This document shows, one piece after another, positions 1 to 37,438 of a DNA stretch of 37,438 bases; the first letter of the stretch is position 1; each line of letters opens with the position of its first letter. The notes under the pieces were generated by a model. That model did not search any database. It saw only the letters and a list, made by a program, of their open reading frames with translations, and was not told the origin of the DNA. Source of the stretch: a virus; the IMG/VR virus record IMGVR_UViG_3300045988_172593, positions 1 to 37,438 of that record. One strand, 5' to 3'. Both the position numbers and the translations under genes were made by a program.

Positions 1-104
1 ACGTAGCTCAAGTTACAATCCCGATAACAGAGTCCACATCAGATGGTACGGCGGGCGATCCTTATTACATTCCTTTTGATTTGGCCGTTATTTGCGTTAA
101 GTAG
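1..104 (+). CDS. 3' fragment of receptor-binding cassette E (duplicate of 37320..37423), truncated at the window edge.
   Basis: The in-frame translation NVAQVTIPITESTSDGTAGDPYYIPFDLAVICVK* is identical to the C-terminus of the ORF ending at 37423. The TAG stop lies at 102..104. Confidence 0.6.
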   Translation, partial: VAQVTIPITESTSDGTAGDPYYIPFDLAVICVK

Positions 105-117
105 CATTCCGTATCCC
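105..117 (+). repeat. Shufflon crossover site (CATTCCGTATCCC), forward orientation.
   Basis: A 12-13 bp core is repeated at 8 loci in both orientations. Every copy reads SVS in the cassette frame. Confidence 0.8.
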
Positions 118-437
118 AGGATACCGGCTGGGTGAACCTGTACAGCGACAGCACGTGGGGAGGCGTGCTATACAGGGCGAAGGCTGGCATCTGCACAATC
201 CAGGTTCAAGTGTACGGCATCAAGGCGAACGACAACTGGAAGGTTCCGATGACGATTCCGGCGCAGTACCTGCCCGACACGTCGCTCTACGCTCCGCTTG
301 CCCACAGGCAAAGCAACAACGTCGCCCAGCTGTGGGTCCCGAACAAGGACCACGAAGACCCCTTCTTGTACATCTATACGCAGGTGGACGCGAACTGGGA
401 GAACTACATCACCGGCATCGTGTCGTATTTCTATTAG
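105..437 (+). CDS. Promoterless C-terminal cassette A of the receptor-binding protein (silent, plus orientation).
   Basis: The frame is open from the site (HSVSQDTGWVNLYSDSTWGG...) to the stop at 437. It shares the SNNVAQ...DPF(L/Y)Y motif with cassette E. No start codon or RBS context. Confidence 0.7.
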   Translation, partial: HSVSQDTGWVNLYSDSTWGGVLYRAKAGICTIQVQVYGIKANDNWKVPMTIPAQYLPDTSLYAPLAHRQSNNVAQLWVPNKDHEDPFLYIYTQVDANWENYITGIVSYFY

Positions 438-745
438 GCCTTGAGATAGACGATTGACCATATCTCGTCGTTCGAGACCACGTCGCTGACCTGCACGATC
501 ATGACGCCGTTCCCGCCAAGCGCGCCGGTTATCGACGGACTTTTCCAAACGGAGTTGCGCCCGTAGGTCACGCCGGTCTCGTGCAGCGGCAACGGGCAGC
601 CGGTCAGCGTCGCGGTTATCCAATTGCACTGACCTGCGTTGATGCGTCCGGCCATATAGACCATGCCCGCGACCTCGACGCAGGTGTCCACGGAGATGCG
701 CTCGTCGGAAGAGCTCACGCTGTAGCTCTTCCGGGATACGGAATC
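434..745 (-). CDS. Promoterless C-terminal cassette B (silent, same orientation as the expressed gene).
   Basis: Minus-strand frame ...LLGDSVSRKSYSVSSSDERISVDT...IVYLKA*. It begins at the reverse-orientation site at 733..745. Confidence 0.65.
   Translation of the reverse strand, partial: DSVSRKSYSVSSSDERISVDTCVEVAGMVYMAGRINAGQCNWITATLTGCPLPLHETGVTYGRNSVWKSPSITGALGGNGVMIVQVSDVVSNDEIWSIVYLKA
733..745 (-). repeat. Shufflon crossover site, reverse orientation (GGGATACGGAATC on plus).
   Basis: It forms a perfect head-to-head inverted repeat with the site at 756..768, separated by a 10 bp spacer. Confidence 0.8.
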
Positions 746-755
746 ACCTAACAGG

Positions 756-768
756 CATTCCGTATCCC
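756..768 (+). repeat. Shufflon crossover site (CATTCCGTATCCC), forward orientation.
   Basis: Exact core copy. It reads HSVSR in the cassette C frame. Confidence 0.8.
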
Positions 769-1025
769 GCGAGTGGCCAATAGGACGCGTCGTATGGCTC
801 GCCGGCTCGGTCACGCCGAAAACCCTCGGGTTGCCCGGCACGTGGAAAAGCTACCGCTGGTCTCTCACGACCAAGGTCGGCTCGGTTCTCGACGTCAAGG
901 GTGGCAGGTACGACGTCGCCGGCGCAGAAGTGCAGATTTACTCGTACAACAATTCCGAAGCGCAAAGATGGCACATCTACGCGGAGGGTCCAGGCGTCGT
1001 CACGCTGTGGGTCAGAACGGCATAG
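756..1025 (+). CDS. Promoterless C-terminal cassette C, carrying a ricin-B-like (QxW) beta-trefoil-type motif.
   Basis: Open frame HSVSREWPIGRVVWLAGSVTPKTLGLPGTWKSYRWSLTTKVGSVLDVKGGRYDVAGAEVQIYSYNNSEAQRWHIYAEG...RTA*. The LDVxG...VQiy..nn..QrW pattern is lectin-like. Confidence 0.65.
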   Translation, partial: HSVSREWPIGRVVWLAGSVTPKTLGLPGTWKSYRWSLTTKVGSVLDVKGGRYDVAGAEVQIYSYNNSEAQRWHIYAEGPGVVTLWVRTA

Positions 1026-1038: not shown

Positions 1039-1289
1039 CGATTCAGATTCGCGGATGGAAGGTGCTGGAATCCGTCCAGACGAGCGGGTATCCGGGCGAG
1101 GCCAACCGAAAGATTTATATGAGATACGAGGGAACAGACTCTAGCTGGACGTTCATCCCTATCAGACTGGCGTGGTGCACGGTCGAGGAGATCACCTTCG
1201 ACAGCGGCGGCATAAAGCTGCTCGTCAATCCAACGTACGAGTCGTCGCATATTGGGGTGACTTTGCTAGCGCTCAAGCTCAGTAGATGA
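1026..1289 (+). CDS. Promoterless C-terminal cassette D.
   Basis: Open frame HSVSPIQIRGWKVLESVQTSGYPGEANRKIYMRYEGTDSSWTFIPIRLAWCTVEEITFDSGGIKLLVNPTYESSHIGVTLLALKLSR*. Confidence 0.65.
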   Translation, partial: HSVSPIQIRGWKVLESVQTSGYPGEANRKIYMRYEGTDSSWTFIPIRLAWCTVEEITFDSGGIKLLVNPTYESSHIGVTLLALKLSR

Positions 1290-1328
1290 TTCCCTTGAGC
1301 GCTAATAGGGATACGGCGCTACGGAGTG

Positions 1329-2162
1329 CTACGAGCGCGTCACCGGGAAGACCAACTGTCCGTAATAGTAGGCGTAGCTACTCCCTCCGTGGCTTACGTA
1401 GACGCTAATTTTCCCGGAGTTCTTGACCATGAGCTGCCCGCATATGGAGCTATCGCCCCTGTATCTGAGCGGCGCGATGTATGCGACTTCGTCGCTGCCC
1501 GTTTGGTCGGCGGCCGTGCTCCCTAGCGGTTTCATGCCGTTCGGGAGGGTTCCGATTTTACGATCAGAGTTTGCGACTGGCACGCTCAGGAAGTCGACGG
1601 AGACGATGCAGACGCCGCCCTCGACGCAGCACATGAGGCTGTTGCCGAGGCGGACCTGCTTTCGGGATACGGAAGCTTTAAGCTGGGATACGGAATCCCC
1701 GAGCGTGGCCAAAGGGGTGACGGGATTGAAAAGCTTGACGGGCGTGCCGACGGTGATGCCGTTGAGCGGCACGCGCCACAGCTTCAGGTCGTTGGTCGTT
1801 ACGGCGGGGTCCGCCGCCGTGCCGGTGGTCGGCGTGCCCTTGATGACCATCGGCTCGATGCTCTCGATGCCCTCGTTCGTCTTTGAGTAGCGCGCGACAA
1901 CCAGGTCGTTGCGCTTCTGGCCCTGCGTGCCAGATTGGATGGTGAGCGATGTGGCCGCCTGGTTCCAGAAGCGCTTGCCCCCCACCATGCCGACGCCGGT
2001 TCCGAGGGTGGCGCTGTTGGCGCTGGCCATCGTCAGCGCGAAGTCGTTGCCGTACTTGAGCACGCAGTCCGCCTTGCCGACGGTCGCCGTGTTGAGCGCG
2101 GCAAGGTCGTCGGAGCTGATGTGCTTGGTGCCGGTCATGCCGTCCACTATCTCGAATGCCAT
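1329..2162 (-). CDS. Receptor-binding / tail fibre protein with a shufflon-switchable C-terminus. The constant N-terminal part is about 1698..2162. The currently fused variable part is 1329..1684.
   Basis: A 277 aa ORF at the distal end of the tail module. Two reverse-orientation sites lie inside the CDS and encode ...LGDSVSQLKASVSRKQ... Confidence 0.8.
   Translation of the reverse strand: MAFEIVDGMTGTKHISSDDLAALNTATVGKADCVLKYGNDFALTMASANSATLGTGVGMVGGKRFWNQAATSLTIQSGTQGQKRNDLVVARYSKTNEGIESIEPMVIKGTPTTGTAADPAVTTNDLKLWRVPLNGITVGTPVKLFNPVTPLATLGDSVSQLKASVSRKQVRLGNSLMCCVEGGVCIVSVDFLSVPVANSDRKIGTLPNGMKPLGSTAADQTGSDEVAYIAPLRYRGDSSICGQLMVKNSGKISVYVSHGGSSYAYYYGQLVFPVTRS
1665..1676 (-). repeat. Shufflon crossover site, reverse orientation, one mismatch (GGGATACGGAAG).
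   Basis: A second in-frame site 9 nt from the site at 1685..1697. It encodes ASVS. Confidence 0.6.
1685..1697 (-). repeat. Shufflon crossover site, reverse orientation (GGGATACGGAATC). This is the junction between the constant region and the variable cassette.
   Basis: It encodes GDSVSQ within the expressed ORF. Confidence 0.8.
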
Positions 2163-2396
2163 TTACTGCTCCTTCGCGTTGGTCATGAACTGCTGGAACG
2201 CCGCATCGTGCTGCGCCGCGAGCTTCTTGTACTCGTCCGTGCATCCCTTGCACAAAAGCCTGCTCGCCTTGCTGCCGTACTGGTCGAACCGCTCGACCTC
2301 GCGCCAGTCTCCGGCGGCCGCGGCCCCCTGCTGCAGGTACGCGCTCTCGCCGCAGCGGTCGCACGTGTAGCGCGTGATGTTGTCGGTCTTTGCCAT
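2163..2396 (-). CDS. Small zinc-ribbon protein (CxxC...CxxC) in the tail-fibre cluster. It may act as a fibre assembly factor.
   Basis: 77 aa ORF MAKTDNITRYTCDRCGES...CKGCTDEY, immediately upstream of the RBP gene. Confidence 0.55.
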   Translation of the reverse strand: MAKTDNITRYTCDRCGESAYLQQGAAAAGDWREVERFDQYGSKASRLLCKGCTDEYKKLAAQHDAAFQQFMTNAKEQ

Positions 2397-2405
2397 ATCC
2401 TCTCC

Positions 2406-3089
2406 TTACTTCGTCCTCAGCCACGTGTACGGGCCTACGCTCGGCACCTGCTTCCACGTGCCGCCGACGCTGTTCGGGTTGAACGAGCCGTCGGTCTCCA
2501 CATACTCGCCGACCCGGTGCGCCATGAGCCACGTCGCGTTCGGGTCGGCGGTGTCGAGGATGTGCTGCCAGCCGCCCCATGCTGAAGCGGACGTGCCGCG
2601 GCGCCAGTACATGTCCGCCCCGACCACCGCCACCTGCTTCGGCAGCCCTCCGGAATCATCGTTCCATGGGGTCAGGGTCACGAGCACGGCGAACGTGTCT
2701 CCGGACAGCCCGATCGCGCTCGCGGTCTTGAACTCCGCGTATATGGACTTGGCGTGGCCGCTCATGTACCACGCCGGCGAGCTGTTCGCGTTTCTCGTGT
2801 CGGCTATGCTGCCGCCGCTCGGACCCTGCGGGCCGGTCGGGCCCTGCGGGCCGGTGGCCCCCTTGGGGCCCTGGATTCCCTGCGGGCCCTGAGCACCCGC
2901 CGGGCCGACGGGACCGGTGGGGCCCTGCTTGCCCGTGGGACCCTGCGGCCCCGTCGCGCCCGTCTCGCCCTTCGGCCCCTGCGGGCCGGTGGCGCCGGTC
3001 GCGCCCCTCGCGCCGGTCGCGCCCTGCGGGCCCGTCGCGCCCTTGTCGCCCTTAGGGCCCTTGATGTTGCCGACCAGGAACTTCGCCAT
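2406..3089 (-). CDS. Collagen-like repeat tail fibre protein.
   Basis: [26 protein letters not shown]... long GXY repeats followed by a globular C-terminal domain. Start ATG at 3089. Confidence 0.7.
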
Positions 3090-3091
3090 CG

Positions 3092-5227
3092 TCACCCACC
3101 TATCTCGTAGTAAAGCTCGCCTGTGGACGGGTCGTATGAGAGCGGCGGCGCGGCGCCGCCGTCGGCGACGTGCGACCAGAGGTTCCCGTCCGCGTCCACG
3201 GTGAGCGAGAAGAAGCCCGACAGGGGCGCGGTCACGCCCGAATCGCCGCGGTCGCCCTTCTCGCCCTTGGGGCCTTGGATGCCCTGCGGGCCGCGCTCGC
3301 CCTGCTCGCCCTTGACGCCCTGCGGCCCCGTCGCCCCGGTCGCGCCCTTCGCGCCAGTGGCTCCGGTCGCGCCGGCCGGGCCTTGCGGCCCTTGCGGGCC
3401 TGTCGCCCCCGTCGCTCCCTTCGGGCCTTGCGGGCCGGCGGCGCCGGCCGCGCCCGTCGCGCCGGCCGGGCCTTGCGCTCCGACCGGGCCTTGCTCGCCC
3501 CTCACGCCCGTGGCGCCGCTCATGTCCGCGATGAGCGAGTAGCCGCTCGCTCCCTTCACGTAAAGCTCTGCGTTGTGCGGGTCCTCCACGTCCGAGCCGA
3601 TGACTGCGAAGCCGCCGGCCTTCACGCCGTCGCTCTTCCACCCCGCCTGCATCGCCTCGTAGCTGGAGTAAACCTTCGAGATGGAGAAGCCCTCGCCCGT
3701 GTCGCCCTTGGGGCCTTGGATGCCCTGCAATCCCTGCGGGCCGCGCGGCCCCGTCTCGCCCTGGACGCCCTGTGGCCCCTGCTTTCCCTGGATGCCCTGG
3801 GGGCCCTGCTCGCCGGCGTCGCCCTTGGGTCCTTGCGCGCCCGTCGCGCCCTTCGGGCCTTGCGGGCCGATCTCGCCCTGCGGGCCGGCGTCGCCTTGCG
3901 GGCCTCGCAATCCCTGCGGGCCGCGCTCGCCCGTGGCGCCGGTCTCCCCCTTGGGGCCTTGGATGCCCGTCGCGCCCCGCGGGATGCCCAACGAGAGCGT
4001 CTTCTTCAGGCCTTCGCCGGAAAGCGACGCGGTGGCCTTCGCGCCCTCCGCGAGCGTGGAGACCTCGCCCATCGCGATGCCGGCCTGCGCCCATGTCTGG
4101 AGCGAGTTCGAAGCGTCGGTCGCGGCCTTTTCGGCCTTGGCCTCCACCGCCGCCAAAGCCTCGGAATCGACTTCCGCGCTGAAGGTGTAGTTGGCGAGCT
4201 TCAGGCCCTTGCCGGCCAGGTACGCGTGCCCGCCGCCGCCTTCGGCGGTCCCGCTGCTCGTCGTCTTGGTCGTGGTCTCGGAGCCGACCTCGTATGAGTA
4301 CGTGGCCACGCCGCGGCTGACCTTGACGACCTTCTTGGCCACCGTCGCCGCGACGGTGCGCCCGTGCGCGTTGTCGCGCGCCGAGATCACGTCGCCGACG
4401 TCCACGTCTATGTCGTCGTGGGCGTCCACCTCGACGCTTCCGGTGGTCTGGTACTCCGCGAGCTTCTTGCGGCCGTCCTCCTCCAGCTTGGCCTCGTCGG
4501 CGTTGCTGTAGTCGTACAGCGCCGCTATCTCGTCGACCCCGAACAGCGTCTGCTTGTGGGAGACGTTGCCCTTGGCGTCGGCGTAGAAGTGGACGACCGC
4601 GCGGTTCTCCAGCTCGCCCGTGCCGGCGCAGACCAGGTGGTTCACGCAGCGGTGAACCGAGGTCAGCGTGAAGTCCAGCAGGTCGGAGTCCACCTTGTTC
4701 GCATAGTCCGCCACGGGCGGCAGCGAAAGCTCGACCTTGCTCCCCTTGCGCCGCATCGCCAGCTTGCGGCCGTTGGCCTTGGCAAGCGCCTTGAGGCCGC
4801 TGTAGCCGTCGGTGAAGCGGTCGAAGGCGTAGCTCACCGATGCATCATCGGAAGCGGCCGAGAAGACGGCCGACAGCCCCATGCGGGAGATGAGCGAGGC
4901 GACGACGGCGCCAGCTTTGCCGCTCACGGACAGATAGCCGCTGCCGGAGTTCGGCAGCAGGCGCTTGCCCGCCAGGATGCCGTGCCAGGTTCGTCCCTTG
5001 CACGTGACGGCGCCCGCCGCATCGCGGCCTGCGTCGTAGCTCGACTCGTCGACGACGCCGCCGTACTCGCCGCCGTCGATGAACGCGAACTGCCCCTCCG
5101 CCGGGGCGGCATCGGCGGCGCACGTCAGCTCGAATGAGTTCTCGTCGCTGCCGAACGCCAGGTCCAGCTCGAAGTCCTGCAGCTCCCGGACGTTGCCGAG
5201 CTTGGAGTCGTAGACGACTAGGACCAT
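3092..5227 (-). CDS. Tail-associated protein (Tal-like) with two collagen-like (GXY)n segments.
   Basis: About 711 aa. The N-terminus is typical of siphovirus Tal proteins and lies downstream of Dit. Two long GPQGPKG... repeat blocks. Confidence 0.7.
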
Positions 5228-6048
5228 GGCGGCTCCCCCTCCTCCTCGTACCATGTGAGGTCGAACCCGAACGAGCGGTCCCACTCGACCTCGTGCACGC
5301 CCGGCGAAGCGGGCTGGAAGATGTACTCGCCGCTTCCCGATCCGTTTCCGCGGCGCGCCTTGGCGAACGCGTCGGTGGTCGAGCCGTCAGGCCCGACGAC
5401 GGTCACCGAGCGCGGCGTTGCCAGAGGGTCGACCACCATGTATCCGCCGTCGGGGACGGTCACGTCGACGCGGAACCAGTTCCCGTCGATGCGGATTGCC
5501 GGGTTGACGCACGGCCCGTAGACGATGAACCGAAGCGGAGCCGCGCCCCACCCCGCTATGTCGACGTATTTCCTTGTAGACGGAACGCCGAGGTCGTACG
5601 GCAGGTCGTACGGCAGGTCCAGGAACTCGCCGTCTCCCGAGGTCGCGGTAAGCTGCTCGAACGGGACCGTGTGGCCCTTGCGCCACACGCCGTCGAGCAG
5701 CACCACGGTAAGGTCGGCGGTGAAGAAGCCCTCTGAGACCGTATCGGCCTCCGACTCCATCACCATGCACCGCTGCGACCATCCGTCGACGCTCAACGTG
5801 CCGGCGACGCCTCTTGACACGTCGCGGTCGCACGCCCGGCGGAAAGCATCGGCCTTCGCGACGTCGGCGAAGAACGCCTTGAGCTTCGCCTTGCGCGCCT
5901 TCCTCGTCACGGAAGAGACCGACGCGTAGCCGATCGAGTACGACCATTCGCGGCTGAACAGGTCGCTCGGCCTGCCTACGTAGATGCCGTCGTTAAGGCG
6001 GTACGCATCGCCGCCGACGCCGGAGACGTACACGATGTCGCTACGCAT
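5218..6048 (-). CDS. Distal tail protein (Dit).
   Basis: 276 aa, located between the tape measure protein and Tal. Confidence 0.65.
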
Positions 6049-8302
6049 ACGCCACCGCCTTCCTGACCTTTCGGCCGAAGTCCTTGTCTCCCATCACCGG
6101 CGTGTAATCGGCGATGATTGCCGGCAGGTTCGCCGCCAGCCACGCGATGACCGATTCGCCGGACGCGCCGACGGAGACGGAGCCGCCGATGCCTGCCCCG
6201 CCATCGCCGATCGCGGAGCGCACGCGGCCCATGACGCCTTCCATCGCCTCGGTCGGGGTGTCGCCGGCCGCCTCGATGCCCTCTGCCAGGCCCTGCACGA
6301 TGGCCTTGCCGCTGTACGGCGTCCATCCTTTGCCGCTGAACGGGCCTCGCTTCGCAGGGGAGTGCGGCAGGTAGCTCGCGATGGTATCGACGACGGAGCC
6401 GATGGCCGCGCCTGCAGAGCCTATCATCCCCATGATGCCGTCGATGACGCCTTGGACGATGGCCTGGCCGGCGCTCATGGCCGAGCCTACGATGCCGTAG
6501 AGGCCGTCGATAAGGCTTGAGCCGAAGCTCGACGCGGCCTGCGCCGCCTGGGAGGCCATCTGGCCGGCCCATCCCGCGACGGCACCGATGACGGAAGACA
6601 GGAACCCGGACACGTTGCCGGGAAGCTGCGAGAGGAAGCCGACCACGGACGAGATGAAGCCCGAGCCGGCCGAAGCGGCGCTCGAAACCATCGAGCCTAC
6701 CCATCCGGCTACGGTCCCGATGACCGATGCCAGGAAGCCGCCCACGATGCCGGGCAGCTGCGAGAAGAAGCCGGCGACCGACGTCACGAACGCCTGGATG
6801 CTCGCCGGCGCCGCCATGAAGAACTCGACCACGGCTGTGACCGTCTCTATGAGGCCCGTGAAGACCGCCACGACGGCCGACACCGCGTCCACCAGCGTCA
6901 CCAGGACGGCCACGAGCACCTCGCCCAGGAACGACGCTATAGGCTCAAGCCATACCTGGGCCTCGCCGACCGCCGCGAACAGCTCGCCGAACCGCTCTCC
7001 GAGGAACTCCAATGCCGGCAACAGGTATTCGCTGGCCGTGTCGGCGATGCTGCCAAGAAGCGCGCCGACCGTGTCGAGCACGGCCGCCTGCGCCTCCATG
7101 GCCCCCATCTCGTCGAACTTCGATTCCAGCTGGCCTATGCCTTCCGCCGCCCGGGCACCGAAATCCGCTATGGCCCCGAGGAACCCCGACAGCGACTCCG
7201 CCAGGCCGCTCGCCTGGAACGACTGCGCTATCTCGTCGACCTTCTGCTGCGCCTCGGCCGGCAGCGCGTCGTAGATTCCCCTCAGCGCCTCCGCGAAGAT
7301 GTCGCCGACCGCCTGCGCCGCCACCGGCCCAAGCTGCGAGACCAACCCGGGAACCTGGCCTATCAGCGTGCCGATGATGACCGCCATGCGCGGCACCACG
7401 TTGCCCGCCGCCGTCTCGAAGCTCTGCACCAGGTTCTCGGTCAGCTGCTGCATATCGGCGGAGTCGTCGCCCAGGCCGGTCAGCCAGTTCTCCCACGCCG
7501 CCTTCATCGAGTTCACGCTGCCCTCGATGGTGGTGGAGGCCTCGCGCGCCGTCGTTCCGGCGATATTCATCTGCTCCTGGATGATGTGGATTGCCTCGGT
7601 GACGTCGGCGAACGAGTCGATGGACAGGTCGGCCATCTCGCCGTTGGCCTCCTTGACGCGGTTGGCGTCGGAGATGAGGCGCTCCATCTCCTCCTTGGTG
7701 CCGCCGTAGCCGAGCTTGAGGTTATCCAGCATCGTGTAGTTCTGCTTCGCGAAGCCCTGGTACGCCCATTGCAGCGACTGCATGTCCGTGCCGAAGGTGT
7801 TCGCGTTGTCGCTCATGTCGACCATCGCCATGTTGGCGTAGTCGGCTGCGGCGTTCGTGTCGTTGCCCAGCGACTTGATGAGCGCGGCGGAGAAGCCGGT
7901 GACCTGCTCCATGTACTGGTTCGCGCTCATGCCGGCCGTCTGCCAGGCGTTGCCGGCGTTGGACAGCGCCGTCGTCTGCGCCTGTTCGAGCTGCTGCCAC
8001 TTCCCGGCGCACTCGTCGGTGGACTGCCCGGTCAGGGCGGCGTACTCTTCGAGCGACTTGCCCATGTTGCCGAACAGCTTCTGGATGCCGCCGACGTTCT
8101 GCTCGTAGCTCGCGTACATGCCGAGCGCCTGGCTGCCGAGCGCGCCGACCGCCGTGGCCGCCGCCGCGACGCCCGCCGCAGCCGTTCGGCCGATTGCCCC
8201 GAACGCGCCCTTGACCTTCGACGCCACCTTCTCGACGCCGCTCGTGGCCTTGTCGTCGATTCCGATCTTGACCATCAGGTCCAGCAGGTTAATCTCCATC
8301 AC
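6041..8302 (-). CDS. Tape measure protein.
   Basis: 753 aa, Ala/Gly-rich, with hydrophobic GxxxG-rich segments. It lies downstream of the G/GT chaperone. Confidence 0.85.
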   Translation of the reverse strand: MMEINLLDLMVKIGIDDKATSGVEKVASKVKGAFGAIGRTAAAGVAAAATAVGALGSQALGMYASYEQNVGGIQKLFGNMGKSLEEYAALTGQSTDECAGKWQQLEQAQTTALSNAGNAWQTAGMSANQYMEQVTGFSAALIKSLGNDTNAAADYANMAMVDMSDNANTFGTDMQSLQWAYQGFAKQNYTMLDNLKLGYGGTKEEMERLISDANRVKEANGEMADLSIDSFADVTEAIHIIQEQMNIAGTTAREASTTIEGSVNSMKAAWENWLTGLGDDSADMQQLTENLVQSFETAAGNVVPRMAVIIGTLIGQVPGLVSQLGPVAAQAVGDIFAEALRGIYDALPAEAQQKVDEIAQSFQASGLAESLSGFLGAIADFGARAAEGIGQLESKFDEMGAMEAQAAVLDTVGALLGSIADTASEYLLPALEFLGERFGELFAAVGEAQVWLEPIASFLGEVLVAVLVTLVDAVSAVVAVFTGLIETVTAVVEFFMAAPASIQAFVTSVAGFFSQLPGIVGGFLASVIGTVAGWVGSMVSSAASAGSGFISSVVGFLSQLPGNVSGFLSSVIGAVAGWAGQMASQAAQAASSFGSSLIDGLYGIVGSAMSAGQAIVQGVIDGIMGMIGSAGAAIGSVVDTIASYLPHSPAKRGPFSGKGWTPYSGKAIVQGLAEGIEAAGDTPTEAMEGVMGRVRSAIGDGGAGIGGSVSVGASGESVIAWLAANLPAIIADYTPVMGDKDFGRKVRKAVAYA

Positions 8303-33016: not shown

Positions 33017-34162
33017 ATGGGAGCGAAGCTGACGCTAACGGTGTCGCGCATGGAGGGCGCCAGCAACGCCAAGTGCCGCCTGTGGCGCCTGCGCCTGTTC
33101 GTCGACGGCAAGCCCGCCAAGTCCAAGCGGTTCCACGGCACCTACGGCCAGGCCAAGGCCGCCGGGGACGACTTCAAGGCCGCCTACGCCGAGACCATGC
33201 GGCTGAGCGGCTACGACCCGGGCATGACGTTCGCCGAGTACGCCGAGCGGTGGCTGCAGAGGCGCAGGGACTCCGGGAGCTTCGAGAACCAGACCATCAG
33301 GGCCAACGCCGCGAAGGTCGACGGCCTGCGCCGCGTGATAGGCGACCTCAAGCTGAGCGAGATGAAGCGAACCGACGTCATAGACGCCCTCCTCAGCATA
33401 AAAGGAGGCGCCATCGGCGGAGGCGAGCTTATGAACTCGACCGTGCGAGGCTACCACACCGTGCTGAAGCAGATCATGGACGAGGCGGTACGCGACGAGC
33501 TGATACCCAAGAGCCCGGTCGACAACGTCAAGCCTCCGAAGTCCGACGCCCGCGAGAAGCACGCGCTGCCCTTCGACCGATACACGAAGCTCATAGGCGA
33601 CCTCACGAGCATGCGCGGAGACGCCCACGTCGTCGGCATCCTCCTCATTGCGCTGAACGGCCTGCGCCGCTCCGAGGCGGTGGCCCTCGAATGGGATGAC
33701 GACCTTGGAGACGGCCTTGCGGTGTTCGATTCCATCGAGGACATGTCCGGCGAGAAGAAGAAGACCAAATCCCCCAGCGGCAAGCGCATAGTCCCCATGA
33801 CCGCGGAGACGCGGAAGCTGCTCGACGAGTGGAAGCCCATGCAGGCGCTCATGCTGAGGTCGCGCGGAATCGAGCAGACCCCGCAGACCCCGTTGATAAC
33901 GAACGTCAAGGGCAGGAGGATGGCTGCGGACACGCTGTATCGCTGGTGGCGGAAGTTCGGGCCGACGATGTTCGGCGTCGACTGCACGCTGCATGAGCTT
34001 CGGCACACGTTCCTGACCTACCTCGCCAAAGACGGAGACGCCTTCGCGCTCAAGCGCATAGCCGGATGGTCGAAGATATCCATGGCGGACACGTACGTGC
34101 ACGCCGACGACGAGGCCGACCGCGCGGCCATGCGAGCGTTCGAGGATCGAATCGGCCGATAG
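33017..34162 (+). CDS. int: Tyrosine integrase (phage Int).
   Basis: 381 aa with an arm-binding N-terminus and catalytic motifs ...HELRHTF...Y. Confidence 0.85.
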   Translation: MGAKLTLTVSRMEGASNAKCRLWRLRLFVDGKPAKSKRFHGTYGQAKAAGDDFKAAYAETMRLSGYDPGMTFAEYAERWLQRRRDSGSFENQTIRANAAKVDGLRRVIGDLKLSEMKRTDVIDALLSIKGGAIGGGELMNSTVRGYHTVLKQIMDEAVRDELIPKSPVDNVKPPKSDAREKHALPFDRYTKLIGDLTSMRGDAHVVGILLIALNGLRRSEAVALEWDDDLGDGLAVFDSIEDMSGEKKKTKSPSGKRIVPMTAETRKLLDEWKPMQALMLRSRGIEQTPQTPLITNVKGRRMAADTLYRWWRKFGPTMFGVDCTLHELRHTFLTYLAKDGDAFALKRIAGWSKISMADTYVHADDEADRAAMRAFEDRIGR

Positions 34163-34440
34163 CGGTACATCGGCCGATTCGGCGCGGTACAATCGCGGTA
34201 CATAATCGCCGCAACGCAGTGTGTCGCAAGGAAACACATCGGCGCACTAAGGTAATCTGTTTCACCTGGGGTTATAACGAATCGCAACGAACCGCAACCA
34301 CGGGCAACGATGCCTCACGAGTTCCTGCTCAGTTACGACTCAACTAACGATTCTACCCTTACCGCAACTGTTTTGCCTGGTGATGACTTCGTTTGCGAAA
34401 TCCGTCGCAGTTGCCGGTACATTTATCGGTACAAAACCAG
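34163..34440. other. attP-like region: five CGGTACA direct repeats (putative arm-type Int sites) flanking a core of about 210 bp.
   Basis: CGGTACA at 34173, 34185, 34197, 34415 and 34427. The region is non-coding and immediately 3' of int. Confidence 0.5.
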
Positions 34441-34453
34441 CTCGAAAGACAGT

Positions 34454-36079: not shown

Positions 36080-36237
36080 ATGTCACCTCCTTTCGCTCGA
36101 AAAAGATGATGATGTAGGCGTCACGCCTCGCTTTCCCATGGGCGCGAGGGCGCGTTCGCGCCGGGAAAATCCCAGACTCCCGGGCCGCGTATCCGCTGCA
36201 AAGGGTCTGGGATTTTCTCGAAGCGAAAGAGGTCAAG

Positions 36238-37104
36238 ATGCTGTTTAGCGAAGCCGCGAAGATGTACATGGACGACAAGCAAAAGCGCCTGCGGGCAACG
36301 ACACTCGAAGGCTACGAGAGCGCGTTGAGATGCCACGTGCTGCCCGCCTGGGGAGCGCGCGAGATCGAGGGCATCACCTTCGAGGAGCTGCAGAAGTGGG
36401 TTGATGGCTTTGAGTTACCGGGAGCGGCGGAGAAGGCGTACAAGACGTTCCGGCAGGTGTACCGCTGGACAATCCGCCGCAGGCAGATACGCATCTGGGA
36501 TGCCACGCAAGGCGTGGAGCTACCCCAGAAGCCGACCGTGCGTCGTCCCACGCTAACGGCCAGCGAAGAGCGCGAGACGCTTCGCGGCATCGTGGGCCAG
36601 CCCTTCGAATCCGCCGTGCTCCTGGGCGCGGCCCTGGGGCTGCGGAGGTGCGAAGCGTGCGCCGTGCGCATCGAGGACGTGGACTGGCGCGGCGGTTGGG
36701 TGCATGTGCGGCGCGGCCTGCACGTGGTGCGCGGCGCGGAGGTCGAGACGGGCTGCAAGACGCGGCTGTCGGACAGGCGGCTCAAGCTGCCGCGCTTCGC
36801 CCTTGAGCGCCTGCGTGCCATCAGGGGCAACCGCCGGGCGGGTAGGCTGTGCGAATTGGATCCCAACGCCGTCGCCAGGCGGTTCCGCGCGTTTTGCCGC
36901 CGCCATGAGCTGCCGCACGTGCCTATGACGTGCCTGCGCCATTCGTGGGCAACTATATCGCTGGAGCACGGCGCGAGCATCGAGGACATAGCCGTGGCGC
37001 TGGGGCATACGACTGTGAACACCGCGATGGCGCATTACCTGCAGAGTTTTAGGTCAGTGGTTGCGCGCGCTAGCGACAGCTACGCAGCGGCGATGGCCGG
37101 GTGA
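36238..37104 (+). CDS. Small tyrosine recombinase, the candidate shufflon-specific invertase (Rci/FimB-like).
   Basis: 288 aa with R...H..R...Y motifs (LRHSWAT...GH...Y) and no arm-binding domain. Its stop codon overlaps the shufflon site at 37103. Confidence 0.75.
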   Translation: MLFSEAAKMYMDDKQKRLRATTLEGYESALRCHVLPAWGAREIEGITFEELQKWVDGFELPGAAEKAYKTFRQVYRWTIRRRQIRIWDATQGVELPQKPTVRRPTLTASEERETLRGIVGQPFESAVLLGAALGLRRCEACAVRIEDVDWRGGWVHVRRGLHVVRGAEVETGCKTRLSDRRLKLPRFALERLRAIRGNRRAGRLCELDPNAVARRFRAFCRRHELPHVPMTCLRHSWATISLEHGASIEDIAVALGHTTVNTAMAHYLQSFRSVVARASDSYAAAMAG

Positions 37105-37115
37105 TTCCGTATCCC
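37103..37115 (+). repeat. Shufflon crossover site (GATTCCGTATCCC), forward orientation.
   Basis: Core copy overlapping the recombinase stop codon. It reads DSVSR in the cassette E frame. Confidence 0.8.
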
Positions 37116-37423
37116 GCAATGGAAGTTGGTACATAGCCAGTGTCGGTAACGGAGCCACTATATTATTTTTCCATATGAATATAGCCGTAACGAATTTTGA
37201 AAAGCGCGAGTATACCTACAAGTACAACCTCCCCAAAAATTGTGGAACTCCGATTTCTGGCTTCGTCAATGCAATCCAATGGAGAGCGTCTAATTCGCGA
37301 GTGACTTTCCCGTCAAATAACGTAGCTCAAGTTACAATCCCGATAACAGAGTCCACATCAGATGGTACGGCGGGCGATCCTTATTACATTCCTTTTGATT
37401 TGGCCGTTATTTGCGTTAAGTAG
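37103..37423 (+). CDS. Promoterless C-terminal cassette E (AT-rich).
   Basis: Open frame DSVSRNGSWYIASVGNGATILFF...SNNVAQVTIPITESTSDGTAGDPYYIPFDLAVICVK*. It is paralogous to cassette A. Confidence 0.65.
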   Translation, partial: DSVSRNGSWYIASVGNGATILFFHMNIAVTNFEKREYTYKYNLPKNCGTPISGFVNAIQWRASNSRVTFPSNNVAQVTIPITESTSDGTAGDPYYIPFDLAVICVK

Positions 37424-37436
37424 CATTCCGTATCCC
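37424..37436 (+). repeat. Shufflon crossover site (CATTCCGTATCCC). Same copy as 105..117 if the contig is circular.
   Basis: Exact core inside the terminal repeat. Confidence 0.7.
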
Positions 37437-37438
37437 AG

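What the first reader, a model, noticed from the sequence alone, without database searches (positions are those of the whole stretch)
36238..37115. Second, smaller tyrosine recombinase whose stop codon overlaps a shufflon site. Candidate shufflon invertase, distinct from the phage integrase.
The genome has a canonical integrase (33017..34162, 381 aa, arm-binding N-terminus, attP-like repeats downstream). It also has this 288 aa tyrosine recombinase, which lacks an arm-binding domain and lies directly against the cassette array. Its TGA at 37102..37104 overlaps the site at 37103..37115. Rci (R64) and FimB/FimE are tyrosine recombinases dedicated to inversion. Placement and size suggest this is the cognate shufflon recombinase.
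Basis: partly seen in the sequence, partly recalled or inferred. Interest (0 to 1): 0.8.

Follow-up and report, generated by a model that had tools for sequence, protein, structure and literature searches.

The report
Rin-type tail-protein shufflon invertase
This gene encodes a small tyrosine recombinase that sits beside six swappable end-pieces of a phage receptor-binding protein and very probably flips them into use, a system already described in 2018 and 2022 as the "Rin shufflon".

Summary
ORF 36238..37104 (+) encodes a 288-aa tyrosine recombinase with only a core-binding and a catalytic domain. The A of its TGA stop is the first base of an invariant 12-mer, ATTCCGTATCCC. Seven real copies of that 12-mer, on both strands, bound six in-frame C-terminal cassettes of a tail receptor-binding gene (Rc, 1329..2162, minus strand). 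An eighth copy is an artefact of a 119-nt terminal repeat.

In all 44 related loci that could be scored, a rin homologue ends 0-4 nt from such a site. Relatives carry the same cassettes in other orders and orientations, always broken at the sites. Two prophages 99.6% identical in their flanks differ only by rearranged segments. One relative has a serine integrase and still carries rin and the sites.

This is not new. It matches the Rin shufflon of Bifidobacterium prophages (Mavrich 2018) and Eggerthella lenta prophages (Buttimer 2022), whose reported repeat, ttccgtat, is the core of this 12-mer. Catalysis by Rin has still not been shown biochemically, here or in any paper I could find. Minor extras are a Thr replacing the first active-site His across the family and a conserved inverted repeat upstream of rin. 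Verdict: new member of a known kind, with modest interest.

The parts
36238..37104 (+). rin: 288-aa tyrosine recombinase with core-binding and catalytic domains and no arm-binding domain. Active-site residues are R136, K174, T230 (in place of the first His), R234, H257 and Y267.
36162..36220 (+). Conserved inverted repeat or hairpin (AAAATCCCAGAC ... GTCTGGGATTTT) just upstream of the rin Shine-Dalgarno sequence and ATG. Possible regulatory element; function unknown.
37104..37115 (+). rix site 1 (ATTCCGTATCCC). It overlaps the last base of the rin stop codon and is the fixed end of the invertible region.
37116..37423 (+). Cassette c1 (silent Rv), open in the rix frame. It is 43% GC against 65% for the genome.
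   Evidence: seen fused to Rc in L028, L031, L049, L052 and L054
106..117 (+). rix site 2. It is the same site as 37425..37436, which is duplicated by the 119-nt terminal repeat of the assembly.
118..437 (+). Cassette c2 (silent Rv), convergent with c3. Together they form one invertible segment.
434..732 (-). Cassette c3 (silent Rv).
   Evidence: fused to Rc in L022
733..744 (-). rix site 3.
757..768 (+). rix site 4, head-to-head with site 3 and 12 nt away from it.
769..1025 (+). Cassette c4 (silent Rv) with a ricin-type beta-trefoil lectin repeat.
   Evidence: fused to Rc in L025 and L032
1027..1038 (+). rix site 5.
1039..1289 (+). Cassette c5 (silent Rv), convergent with c6.
   Evidence: fused to Rc in L024, L027 and L050
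1329..1663 (-). Cassette c6, the C-terminus currently expressed. The model has the fold of a lactococcal-phage RBP head domain.
1664..1675 (-). rix site 6 (CTTCCGTATCCC, one mismatch). It is the second copy of a 21-nt tandem unit.
1685..1696 (-). rix site 7, inside the RBP gene, encoding D-S-V-S. This is the point where the constant and variable parts join.
1697..2162 (-). Rc: the constant N-terminal part of the receptor-binding/tail protein. The whole gene 1329..2162 encodes 277 aa.
33017..34162 (+). int: a 381-aa tyrosine integrase, the separate integration module. It is not part of the shufflon.
34161..34447 (.). Probable attP region, with CGCGGTACA-type direct repeats. Homology to an Eggerthella prophage begins at 34447.

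Best explanation
The ORF is rin, the dedicated tyrosine-family DNA invertase of a Rin-type multiple-inversion system (shufflon) in a temperate siphophage of Coriobacteriia (Eggerthella-like host).

The proposed mechanism is as follows. Rin recognises the asymmetric site rix, whose invariant core is ATTCCGTATCCC. It pairs two sites that lie in opposite orientation on the same DNA. It then exchanges strands by the usual tyrosine-recombinase route (Y267 nucleophile, Holliday-junction intermediate), which inverts the DNA between the two sites.

One rix lies inside the receptor-binding-protein gene, at the codons for D-S-V-S. The others precede six promoterless C-terminal cassettes that are all open in the same frame. 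Each inversion involving the in-gene site therefore puts a different head domain onto the constant N-terminal part. Further inversions reshuffle the silent cassettes. rin and the constant part lie outside the invertible DNA, and the last base of the rin stop codon is part of the terminal site. The expected outcome is a phage population with several receptor specificities.

Shown here:
- the gene, its domains and its catalytic residues;
- the sites, their orientation and their reading frame;
- that relatives exist as inversion isomers with breakpoints exactly at the sites;
- that rin and a site always travel together.

Inferred:
- that Rin, rather than another enzyme, does the chemistry;
- where inside the 12-mer the strands are cut;
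- that the cassettes change host range.
For: Gene and domains:
- The ORF and its Pfam domains are as described.
- The AlphaFold model (pLDDT 86.5) is a two-domain tyrosine-recombinase core. Its best PDB matches are the armless cores of Tn1549 Int, XerA, IntI4 and lambda Int 75-356.
- R136, K174, R234, H257 and Y267 are conserved. R136, K174, R234, H257 and Y267 are invariant in a 30-sequence family alignment. Motif counts over 113 full-length relatives agree.

Sites and cassettes:
- The sites are clustered and far above chance.
- A logo from 115 distinct sites shows an invariant ATTCCGTATCCC with no second arm.
- All six cassettes are open in the rix frame, at 87-122 aa.

Inversion in nature:
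- 13 metagenome contigs share the exact Rc-rix junction. After the site they continue into homologues of c1, c3, c4, c5 or c6, or into other cassettes.
- Maps of 40+ loci show every segment in both orientations, always bounded by rix.
- L049 and L051 have flanks 99.6% identical. Six internal segments are 99.1-100% identical but permuted or inverted, with every breakpoint at a rix. The two arrangements are connected by 5 inversions between inverted sites.

Rin-rix linkage:
- The stop codon lies 0-4 nt from a rix or rix-like site in all 44 loci scored. These include Bifidobacterium phage PMBT6 and Siphoviridae ctl617 (Rin about 36% identical), whose repeat is TTCCGTAACCC.
- The L041 phage has a large serine integrase and still has rin plus two inverted rix around a two-cassette segment.

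Target protein:
- The c6 domain model matches the TP901-1, p2 and PSA RBP heads.
- c4 has a ricin-type lectin repeat.
- Rc homologues share about the first 160 aa and then diverge.

Literature: the same architecture is named the Rin shufflon in PMC6109161, and in PMC8778435 with the repeat ttccgtat.
Against: - There is no biochemical or genetic proof that Rin catalyses the inversions, either here or in any paper I could find.
- No reads were available, so isomers of this exact phage in its own sample could not be shown. The one other assembly with the identical Rin (L020) has the same arrangement and simply ends inside cassette c2.
- The first active-site His (HxxR) is Thr in this family (TCLRH in 104 of 113 full-length relatives scanned), so catalytic competence is assumed rather than demonstrated.
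- Only 12-16 nt are conserved and no second binding arm is visible. How a full recombination site is formed is therefore unknown, as is how deletion between directly repeated sites is avoided.
- Cassette numbers differ among relatives (2-11 sites), and L051 lacks one 21-nt unit that L049 has. Events other than inversion therefore also occur.
Confidence: 0.85

Rival explanations
1. The inversions are catalysed by another recombinase: the phage's 381-aa tyrosine integrase or a host Xer-type enzyme. Rin would then have a different job, for example a second integrase for another attachment site.
For: Int is also a tyrosine recombinase with a full RHRY-type box II (HELRH). No experiment assigns the activity to Rin.
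Against: The repeats next to int (CGCGGTACA type) are unrelated to rix. rin and rix remain together across Eggerthella, Collinsella, Slackia, Olsenella and Bifidobacterium phages. No homologue of the window's Int lies within the flanks fetched for any locus except L020, although in a prophage Int would sit at the far end, so this weighs little. A relative has a serine integrase in the Int position and still carries rin plus inverted rix. Published trees also separate Rin from Int (PMC6109161, PMC8778435).
Confidence: 0.05
2. Rin is mainly a dimer-resolution or maintenance recombinase, like Cre/loxP or XerS/difSL, acting on the single site next to its gene. The other copies would be incidental.
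For: A site that abuts the recombinase gene is also typical of XerS/difSL and XerH/difH (general knowledge). The best NCBIfam and PDB sequence matches are Xer-like.
Against: All Xer model scores are far below their cut-offs (43 bits against 220-335). The other copies are not incidental. Each one precedes an open cassette in the frame of the RBP gene, one copy lies inside that gene, and natural isomers break exactly at them. The rin-proximal site itself takes part in exchanges, because the segment next to rin differs between L049 and L051.
Confidence: 0.04
3. The cassette diversity comes from ordinary homologous recombination or module exchange between phages, not from programmed site-specific inversion. 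rin would be a decayed or inactive integrase remnant, consistent with the loss of the first catalytic His.
For: Thr replaces His in box II. Cassette content and number vary between relatives. The cassettes have lower GC than the genome, which suggests horizontal acquisition.
Against: The breakpoints coincide with a 12-nt motif that is too short for homologous recombination. The rearrangements are inversions and permutations of otherwise 99-100% identical segments inside 99.6% identical prophages. rin is intact in the relatives examined, and R136, K174, R234, H257 and Y267 are invariant in the 30-sequence alignment, with matching motif counts over 113 full-length relatives. That pattern indicates purifying selection on an active enzyme. 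Mavrich et al. saw isomers within single cultures and virion preparations of the Bifidobacterium system (PMC6109161).
Confidence: 0.03

Closest known systems
Rin shufflon of Eggerthella lenta clade-1 prophages (Buttimer et al. 2022, PMC8778435)
   Same: Both have an armless tyrosine recombinase next to small tandem Rv genes, a larger Rc gene at the far end, and a repeat 5'-ttccgtat-3' flanking each Rv and lying inside Rc. That repeat is the core of the 12-mer found here. The host class is Coriobacteriia, and the closest genomic relative here is an Eggerthella sp. prophage with 98% Rin identity. A distinct Int is encoded elsewhere in the genome.
   Different: This genome is 37.3 kb, against about 41 kb for clade 1. 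It lacks the published clade-1 tRNA-Leu attP sequences, so it is probably a different phage lineage carrying the same tail module. I found one ricin-type lectin cassette, not the H-type lectin domains the paper mentions.
Rin shufflon of Bifidobacterium prophages Bb423phi1, Bl157phi1 and Bl30698phi1 (Mavrich et al. 2018, PMC6109161)
   Same: The architecture is the same (rin, Rv cassettes, rix, Rc). rin lacks the arm-binding domain. The Rv cassettes resemble the TP901-1 RBP head, as c6 does here. The repeat is short and asymmetric, and the published TTCCCTAACCC is close to ATTCCGTATCCC. Inversions were observed at rix.
   Different: The Bifidobacterium-type Rin that I could reach (phage PMBT6 and ctl617) is only about 36% identical. 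It has Arg, not Thr, at the first-His position, and its repeat is TTCCGTAACCC.
R64 / IncI1 plasmid shufflon (Rci and sfx sites, pilV)
   Same: Both are tyrosine-recombinase multiple-inversion systems. Segments carry one ORF or two convergent ORFs, and these swap the C-terminus of a single adhesin-type gene. The sites are asymmetric and only partly conserved. The recombinase gene lies at one end of the array (for the R64 layout; the rest is general knowledge).
   Different: Rin is not an Rci orthologue: identity is 27% over 178 aa at 34 bits, and Rin lacks the roughly 100-aa C-terminal extension of Rci. The site sequence is different. The target is a phage RBP rather than a pilus tip adhesin, and the hosts are Actinobacteria.
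Gin/Cin/Pin/Min tail-fibre inversion systems of Mu, P1, e14 and p15B
   Same: The biological logic is the same: a phage-encoded invertase next to invertible segments that exchange the C-terminal part of a tail fibre or receptor-binding protein. Min is also a multi-segment shufflon.
   Different: Those invertases are serine recombinases, which have an enhancer and Fis-dependent directionality (general knowledge). Rin is a tyrosine recombinase.
Bacteroides Tsr-type and FimB/FimE tyrosine invertases
   Same: These are tyrosine recombinases dedicated to inversion of nearby DNA.
   Different: They flip promoters or act on short single switches. FimB and FimE are about 200 aa and lack the core-binding domain. 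There is no specific sequence relationship: 24-29 bits.

Membership tests
Rin shufflon (RBP-locus tyrosine invertase system) | Tyrosine recombinase with core-binding and catalytic domains but no arm-binding domain, distinct from the phage integrase | tested here: met
   Pfam domains start at residue 3. The model is a two-domain core matching armless integrase cores. Rin scores only 22 bits against the window's Int.
Rin shufflon (RBP-locus tyrosine invertase system) | rin at one end, the constant RBP part (Rc) at the other, and small promoterless Rv cassettes in between | tested here: met
   The order is rin, six cassettes, then Rc. The same order is seen in every mapped locus that holds both rin and Rc.
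Rin shufflon (RBP-locus tyrosine invertase system) | Short asymmetric repeat (rix) before each Rv and inside Rc, rare elsewhere in the genome | tested here: met
   There are seven real sites, all within about 2.1 kb and none elsewhere at 0-1 mismatch. The logo shows a single conserved block. The site contains the published ttccgtat.
Rin shufflon (RBP-locus tyrosine invertase system) | Inversions occur at rix | tested here: met
   This was shown for close relatives, not for this exact phage: the L049/L051 isomers and permuted or inverted cassettes in 20+ loci.
Rin shufflon (RBP-locus tyrosine invertase system) | Sequence homology of the recombinase to Bifidobacterium-phage Rin | tested here: met
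   Rin is 36.6% identical over 276 aa to the rin-position gene of Bifidobacterium phage PMBT6 (tblastn E 6e-32), which has the same locus layout and a TTCCGTAA-type repeat. The original B. breve proteins were not available for comparison.
Rin shufflon (RBP-locus tyrosine invertase system) | Rv cassettes encode receptor-binding head domains | tested here: met
   The c6 model (pLDDT about 80) matches the TP901-1, p2 and PSA RBP heads (E 9e-4, TMt 0.63). c4 has a ricin-type lectin repeat. c1, c2, c3 and c5 have no Pfam hit, and their structures were not modelled.
Rin shufflon (RBP-locus tyrosine invertase system) | Rin itself catalyses the inversion | not testable with these tools
   This needs a reporter assay or a mutant. 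No published test was found.
R64-type shufflon (Rci/sfx) | Recombinase orthologous to Rci, including its C-terminal extension | tested here: not met
   Identity is 27% over 178 aa at 34 bits. Rin ends about 20 aa after the catalytic Tyr, while Rci continues for about 100 aa.
R64-type shufflon (Rci/sfx) | Multiple inversion of segments that swap the C-terminus of one gene | tested here: met
   The system works like an R64 shufflon without belonging to that family.
Serine invertase tail-fibre switches (Gin/Cin/Pin/Min) | Serine recombinase (resolvase/invertase) catalytic domain | tested here: not met
   Only tyrosine-recombinase domains are found in Rin.
Xer chromosome-dimer resolvases (XerC/D/A/S/H) | Score above the curated Xer family cut-offs | tested here: not met
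   The best score is 43.5 bits against a cut-off of 220 (XerA). XerC and XerD score 31 and 30 bits against cut-offs of 335 and 330.
Canonical phage integrase (lambda Int type) | N-terminal arm-binding domain and an attP with arm sites | tested here: not met
   Rin starts directly with the SAM-like core-binding domain. Its sites are 12-nt repeats inside a coding array, not an attP.

The most novel reading that the evidence does not exclude
The Rin family may be a mechanistically distinct branch of tyrosine invertases. It has Thr (or Arg in the Bifidobacterium type) in place of the first catalytic His. Its site has only one recognisable arm. A conserved inverted repeat lies upstream of rin (AAAATCCCAGAC ... 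GTCTGGGATTTT). That repeat shares ATCCCAG with the 3' half of rix plus its frequent AG flank, so Rin might bind it and autoregulate, setting the inversion frequency. The 21-nt rix-plus-9-nt mini-units, which vary in copy number, would be a by-product of this unusual site use.
Probability: 0.12. Interest if true: 0.5.

Novelty: new member of a known kind. Interest (0 to 1): 0.3.

Why it matters
Rin shufflons let temperate phages of abundant gut Actinobacteria (Eggerthella, Collinsella, Slackia, Olsenella, Bifidobacterium) carry several receptor-binding heads and switch between them. This affects host-range prediction, phage-host network inference from metagenomes, and assembly quality, because contigs break or differ inside the shufflon. 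This window adds a clean six-cassette example. Together with the related loci gathered here, it gives natural isomer evidence and a wide host distribution. The concept and even the repeat sequence are already in the literature, so the value is confirmatory. The open question is biochemical: proof that Rin is the invertase, where it cuts, and how deletion between direct repeats is avoided. That question is directly testable with the parts listed here.

Tried and rejected
- I searched IMG/VR for the exact Rc-rix junction and found no hits.
- I looked up the identical Rin protein to find isomers of this very phage. The one place shown (L020, 4 similar places not shown) has the same arrangement, and its contig ends inside c2. 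This is suggestive of an assembly break but proves nothing.
- L041, L042 and L043 carry the same 65%-identical Rin and show no isomers.
- I tested whether the window is an E. lenta clade-1 prophage by searching for the published attP sequences. They are absent.
- tblastn of the window's Int against the related loci was uninformative, because in prophages Int lies at the far end, outside the fetched flanks.
- A phylogeny against Rci, FimB/E, XerD and lambda Int was replaced by pairwise scores. All are 22-34 bits, and at 16-22% identity a tree would be a star.
- The R64 accession AP005147 is not in the collection, so NC_005014 was used instead.
- The N-terminal (Rc) part of the RBP model was too poor to interpret (pLDDT 30-45).
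- No sigma-70-like promoter was found upstream of rin by the simple scan.
- No tRNA gene is present in the window or at the L001 prophage boundary.
- Literature searches for an experimental test of Rin activity found none, and PMBT6 papers do not discuss the locus.

Full report
**Observation**

The ORF 36238..37104 (+) exists as described. It runs from ATG (preceded by AAGAGG) to TGA and encodes 288 aa. Pfam places a SAM-like core-binding domain at residues 3-56 and the Phage_integrase catalytic domain at 127-270. The protein therefore starts directly with the core-binding domain and has no arm-binding domain. PHROGs files it under the general integrase family phrog_1.

The stop codon is at 37102..37104, and the 12-mer ATTCCGTATCCC starts at 37104, so the two share one base. 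Exact copies of the 12-mer lie at 37104+, 37425+, 106+, 733-, 757+, 1027+ and 1685-, and a one-mismatch copy lies at 1664-. At up to 2 mismatches, 9 hits were found against 1.9 expected, and no shuffle out of 100 reached 9.

One correction is needed. The first 119 nt of the window repeat its last 119 nt. The window is therefore a circular assembly of about 37,319 bp, and sites 37425 and 106 are one site. The array runs across the window ends.

**Anatomy**

On the minus strand a 277-aa gene (1329..2162) sits at the end of the tail module. Upstream of it lie a Sipho_Gp37-like protein with collagen repeats, a collagen-repeat fibre and a 77-aa protein. The rix copy at 1685..1696 lies inside this gene and encodes D-S-V-S.

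After every other rix copy, read in the orientation of the site, an ORF of 87-122 aa is open in the same frame. Each ends just before the next site or converges on a partner cassette. The layout is:

rin> rix> c1> rix> c2> c3< rix< rix> c4> rix> c5> c6< rix< rix< Rc<

This gives two single-cassette segments and two segments with convergent cassette pairs. A model of the expressed protein is poor in the constant part. The c6 cassette domain is modelled at pLDDT about 80 and matches the receptor-binding head domains of lactococcal phages TP901-1 and p2 and of Listeria phage PSA. Cassette c4 carries a ricin-type lectin repeat. Database homologues of the whole protein share roughly the first 160 residues and then diverge, with total lengths of 194-285 aa. 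That pattern fits a modular C-terminus joined at the rix.

**Are the sites real crossover points?**

Yes, in close relatives. A metagenome scan with the exact 25-nt Rc-rix junction returned 13 contigs. Directly after the site these continue into homologues of c6, c3, c5, c4 or c1 (88-97% identical), or into other cassettes.

Maps of these loci, and of ten further loci found through the identical 77-aa neighbour protein, show every segment in both orientations and in many orders. Every segment is bounded by rix, the rin-proximal site always points one way and the Rc site the other.

The clearest case is L049 against L051, which are contigs from two samples of one study. Their flanks are 99.6% identical over 1.9 kb and 5.2 kb. 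Six internal segments are 99.1-100% identical but permuted or inverted, and every block boundary overlaps a rix by 11-17 nt. A search over allowed moves (inversion between oppositely oriented sites) connects the two arrangements in five steps. It also connects the window's arrangement to those of L054 and L023 in three steps each. In this model all six cassettes can reach Rc. The segment next to rin differs between L049 and L051, so the site overlapping the rin stop codon is itself used.

**Is Rin the enzyme?**

This remains an inference, but a strong one.

- Rin homologues with 80-98% identity occur in Eggerthella, Collinsella, Slackia and Olsenella genomes and in eight IMG/VR contigs. About 500 database clusters match at E below 1e-10.
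- In all 44 loci with a complete rin 3' end, the stop codon lies 0-4 nt from a rix or a near-variant of it.
- At 62-65% identity the site is still TTCCGTATCCC.
- At about 36% identity, in Bifidobacterium phage PMBT6 and Siphoviridae ctl617, the synteny is the same (lysin, rin, cassettes, Rc) and the repeat is TTCCGTAACCC, again abutting the rin stop codon.
- In L041 the integration module is a 521-aa large serine recombinase. A rin gene and two inverted rix sites still flank a two-cassette segment. A lambda-type Int is therefore not needed for the system.
- The repeats beside the window's own int (CGCGGTACA type, 34161..34433) are unrelated to rix. Homology to an Eggerthella prophage starts at 34447, which places attP there.

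**What kind of recombinase is Rin?**

Pairwise scores to Rci (R64), XerD, FimB, FimE, lambda Int and the window's Int are all 22-34 bits. The score to the PMBT6-type protein is 175 bits. Xer family models score far below their cut-offs. The AlphaFold model (pLDDT 86.5) is a generic two-domain core. Its best structural matches are the armless cores of Tn1549 Int, XerA, IntI4 and lambda Int 75-356. Context defines this family.

The catalytic residues R136, K174, R234, H257 and Y267 are conserved. The first His of the HxxR box is Thr: TCLRH in 104 of 113 full-length relatives scanned. The Bifidobacterium-type proteins have Arg at that position.

A logo from 115 distinct sites shows an invariant ATTCCGTATCCC with weak preferences at positions -5 to -2 and no recognisable second arm. 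As I recall from the R64 literature, the sfx sites of R64 are likewise conserved on one side only. Where the strands are cut, and how deletion between direct repeats is limited, is unknown. Relatives differ in cassette number (2-11 sites), and L051 lacks one 21-nt unit that L049 has.

**Comparison with the literature**

Mavrich et al. 2018 (PMC6109161) described this architecture in Bifidobacterium prophages and named it the Rin shufflon. Its parts are rin (an armless tyrosine invertase), Rv cassettes, 11-nt rix sites (TTCCCTAACCC) and Rc. They observed isomers in sequencing reads. Buttimer et al. 2022 (PMC8778435) reported a Rin shufflon in Eggerthella lenta clade-1 prophages with the 8-nt repeat ttccgtat, which is the core of the 12-mer here.

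The window lacks the published clade-1 attP sequences and is smaller than those prophages. It is probably a different phage carrying the same tail module. I found no paper that tests Rin activity biochemically.

**Verdict**

The element is a new member of an already described kind. It works like the R64 Rci shufflon and like the Min system of p15B, but it belongs to neither family.

Confidence that the locus is a site-specific multiple-inversion system is very high. Confidence that Rin is its invertase is about 0.85. Interest is modest at 0.3. The points that go beyond the published descriptions are:
- the spread across Coriobacteriia genera;
- the near-identical natural isomers;
- the Thr-for-His active site;
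- the conserved inverted repeat upstream of rin;
- the mobile 21-nt mini-units.

Noticed in passing
window 1..119 and 37320..37438: The two ends are an identical 119-nt direct repeat. The window is a circular (or terminally redundant) assembly of about 37,319 bp, and the shufflon spans the window ends. The rix at 37425 is a duplicate of the one at 106.
   Followed up: yes
window 36162..36220: An inverted repeat, AAAATCCCAGAC ... (27-31 nt) ... GTCTGGGATTTT, lies 15-25 nt upstream of the rin start. Folding gives z = -4.0. It is conserved upstream of rin in all relatives examined, including the 36%-identical Bifidobacterium-type loci, and 5 pairs show compensatory changes. It shares ATCCCAG with the 3' half of rix plus its frequent AG flank. 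It could be an operator, a 5'-UTR hairpin or a bidirectional terminator; its function is unknown.
   Followed up: partly
window 36925..36939 (Rin residues 230-234, TCLRH): The first catalytic His of the tyrosine-recombinase HxxR box is Thr. The motif is TCLRH in 104 of 113 full-length relatives. The PMBT6/ctl617-type Rin has Arg there. Rci, FimB/E, XerD, lambda Int and the window's own Int all have His.
   Followed up: partly
window 1664..1696; also L025, L023, L027, L028, L049, L051: There is a tandem 21-nt unit made of rix plus 9 nt (AGCTTAAAG), which is in frame and adds 7 aa. Its copy number is 1-3, and it sits in front of different cassettes in different relatives. L051 has one unit fewer than its near-identical isomer L049. 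This implies slippage or recombination between closely spaced direct sites.
   Followed up: partly
L041 1116..2681 and 5001..6571: A related phage (Rin 65% identical) has a large serine recombinase as its integrase. It carries a minimal Rin system: two inverted rix sites around two convergent cassettes, resembling the Mu G segment.
   Followed up: partly
window 37116..37423 (c1) and the other cassettes: All cassettes have lower GC than the genome: c1 43%, c5 55%, c2 57%, and c6, c3 and c4 60-61%, against 65% overall. This suggests acquisition from other lineages.
   Followed up: no
window 1308..1319: A degenerate rix-like sequence, GGGATACGGCGC (9 of 12 matches), lies in the 39-nt spacer between the convergent cassettes c5 and c6. 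It may be a decayed site (read).
   Followed up: no
L015, L019, L021; L004, L011, L012, L016: In some relatives the rin-proximal site is altered (ATTCCGTATCAC in L015 and L019, ATTCTGTATCCC in L021), which might lock the terminal cassette. The Slackia-type loci (L004, L011, L012, L016) have AATCCGTATCCC at that position.
   Followed up: no
window 34161..34447: The int-lysin intergenic region contains CGCGGTACA-type direct repeats (four or five copies) and CGCAAC repeats. Homology to the Eggerthella sp. AM16-19 prophage starts at 34447, just before a terminator-like hairpin. This is the probable attP. No tRNA-like sequence was found.
   Followed up: partly
window 2163..2396 (-): A 77-aa protein with CxxC ... 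CxxC (weak zinc-ribbon hits) lies between the collagen-like fibre gene and Rc. The identical sequence is indexed in 562 blocks of the public assembly collection, so this tail module is very widespread in gut metagenomes.
   Followed up: no
window 2406..5284 (-): Two tail genes have long collagen-like Gly-X-Y repeats. One of them also has a Sipho_Gp37-like domain. They produce many spurious overlapping ORFs on both strands.
   Followed up: no
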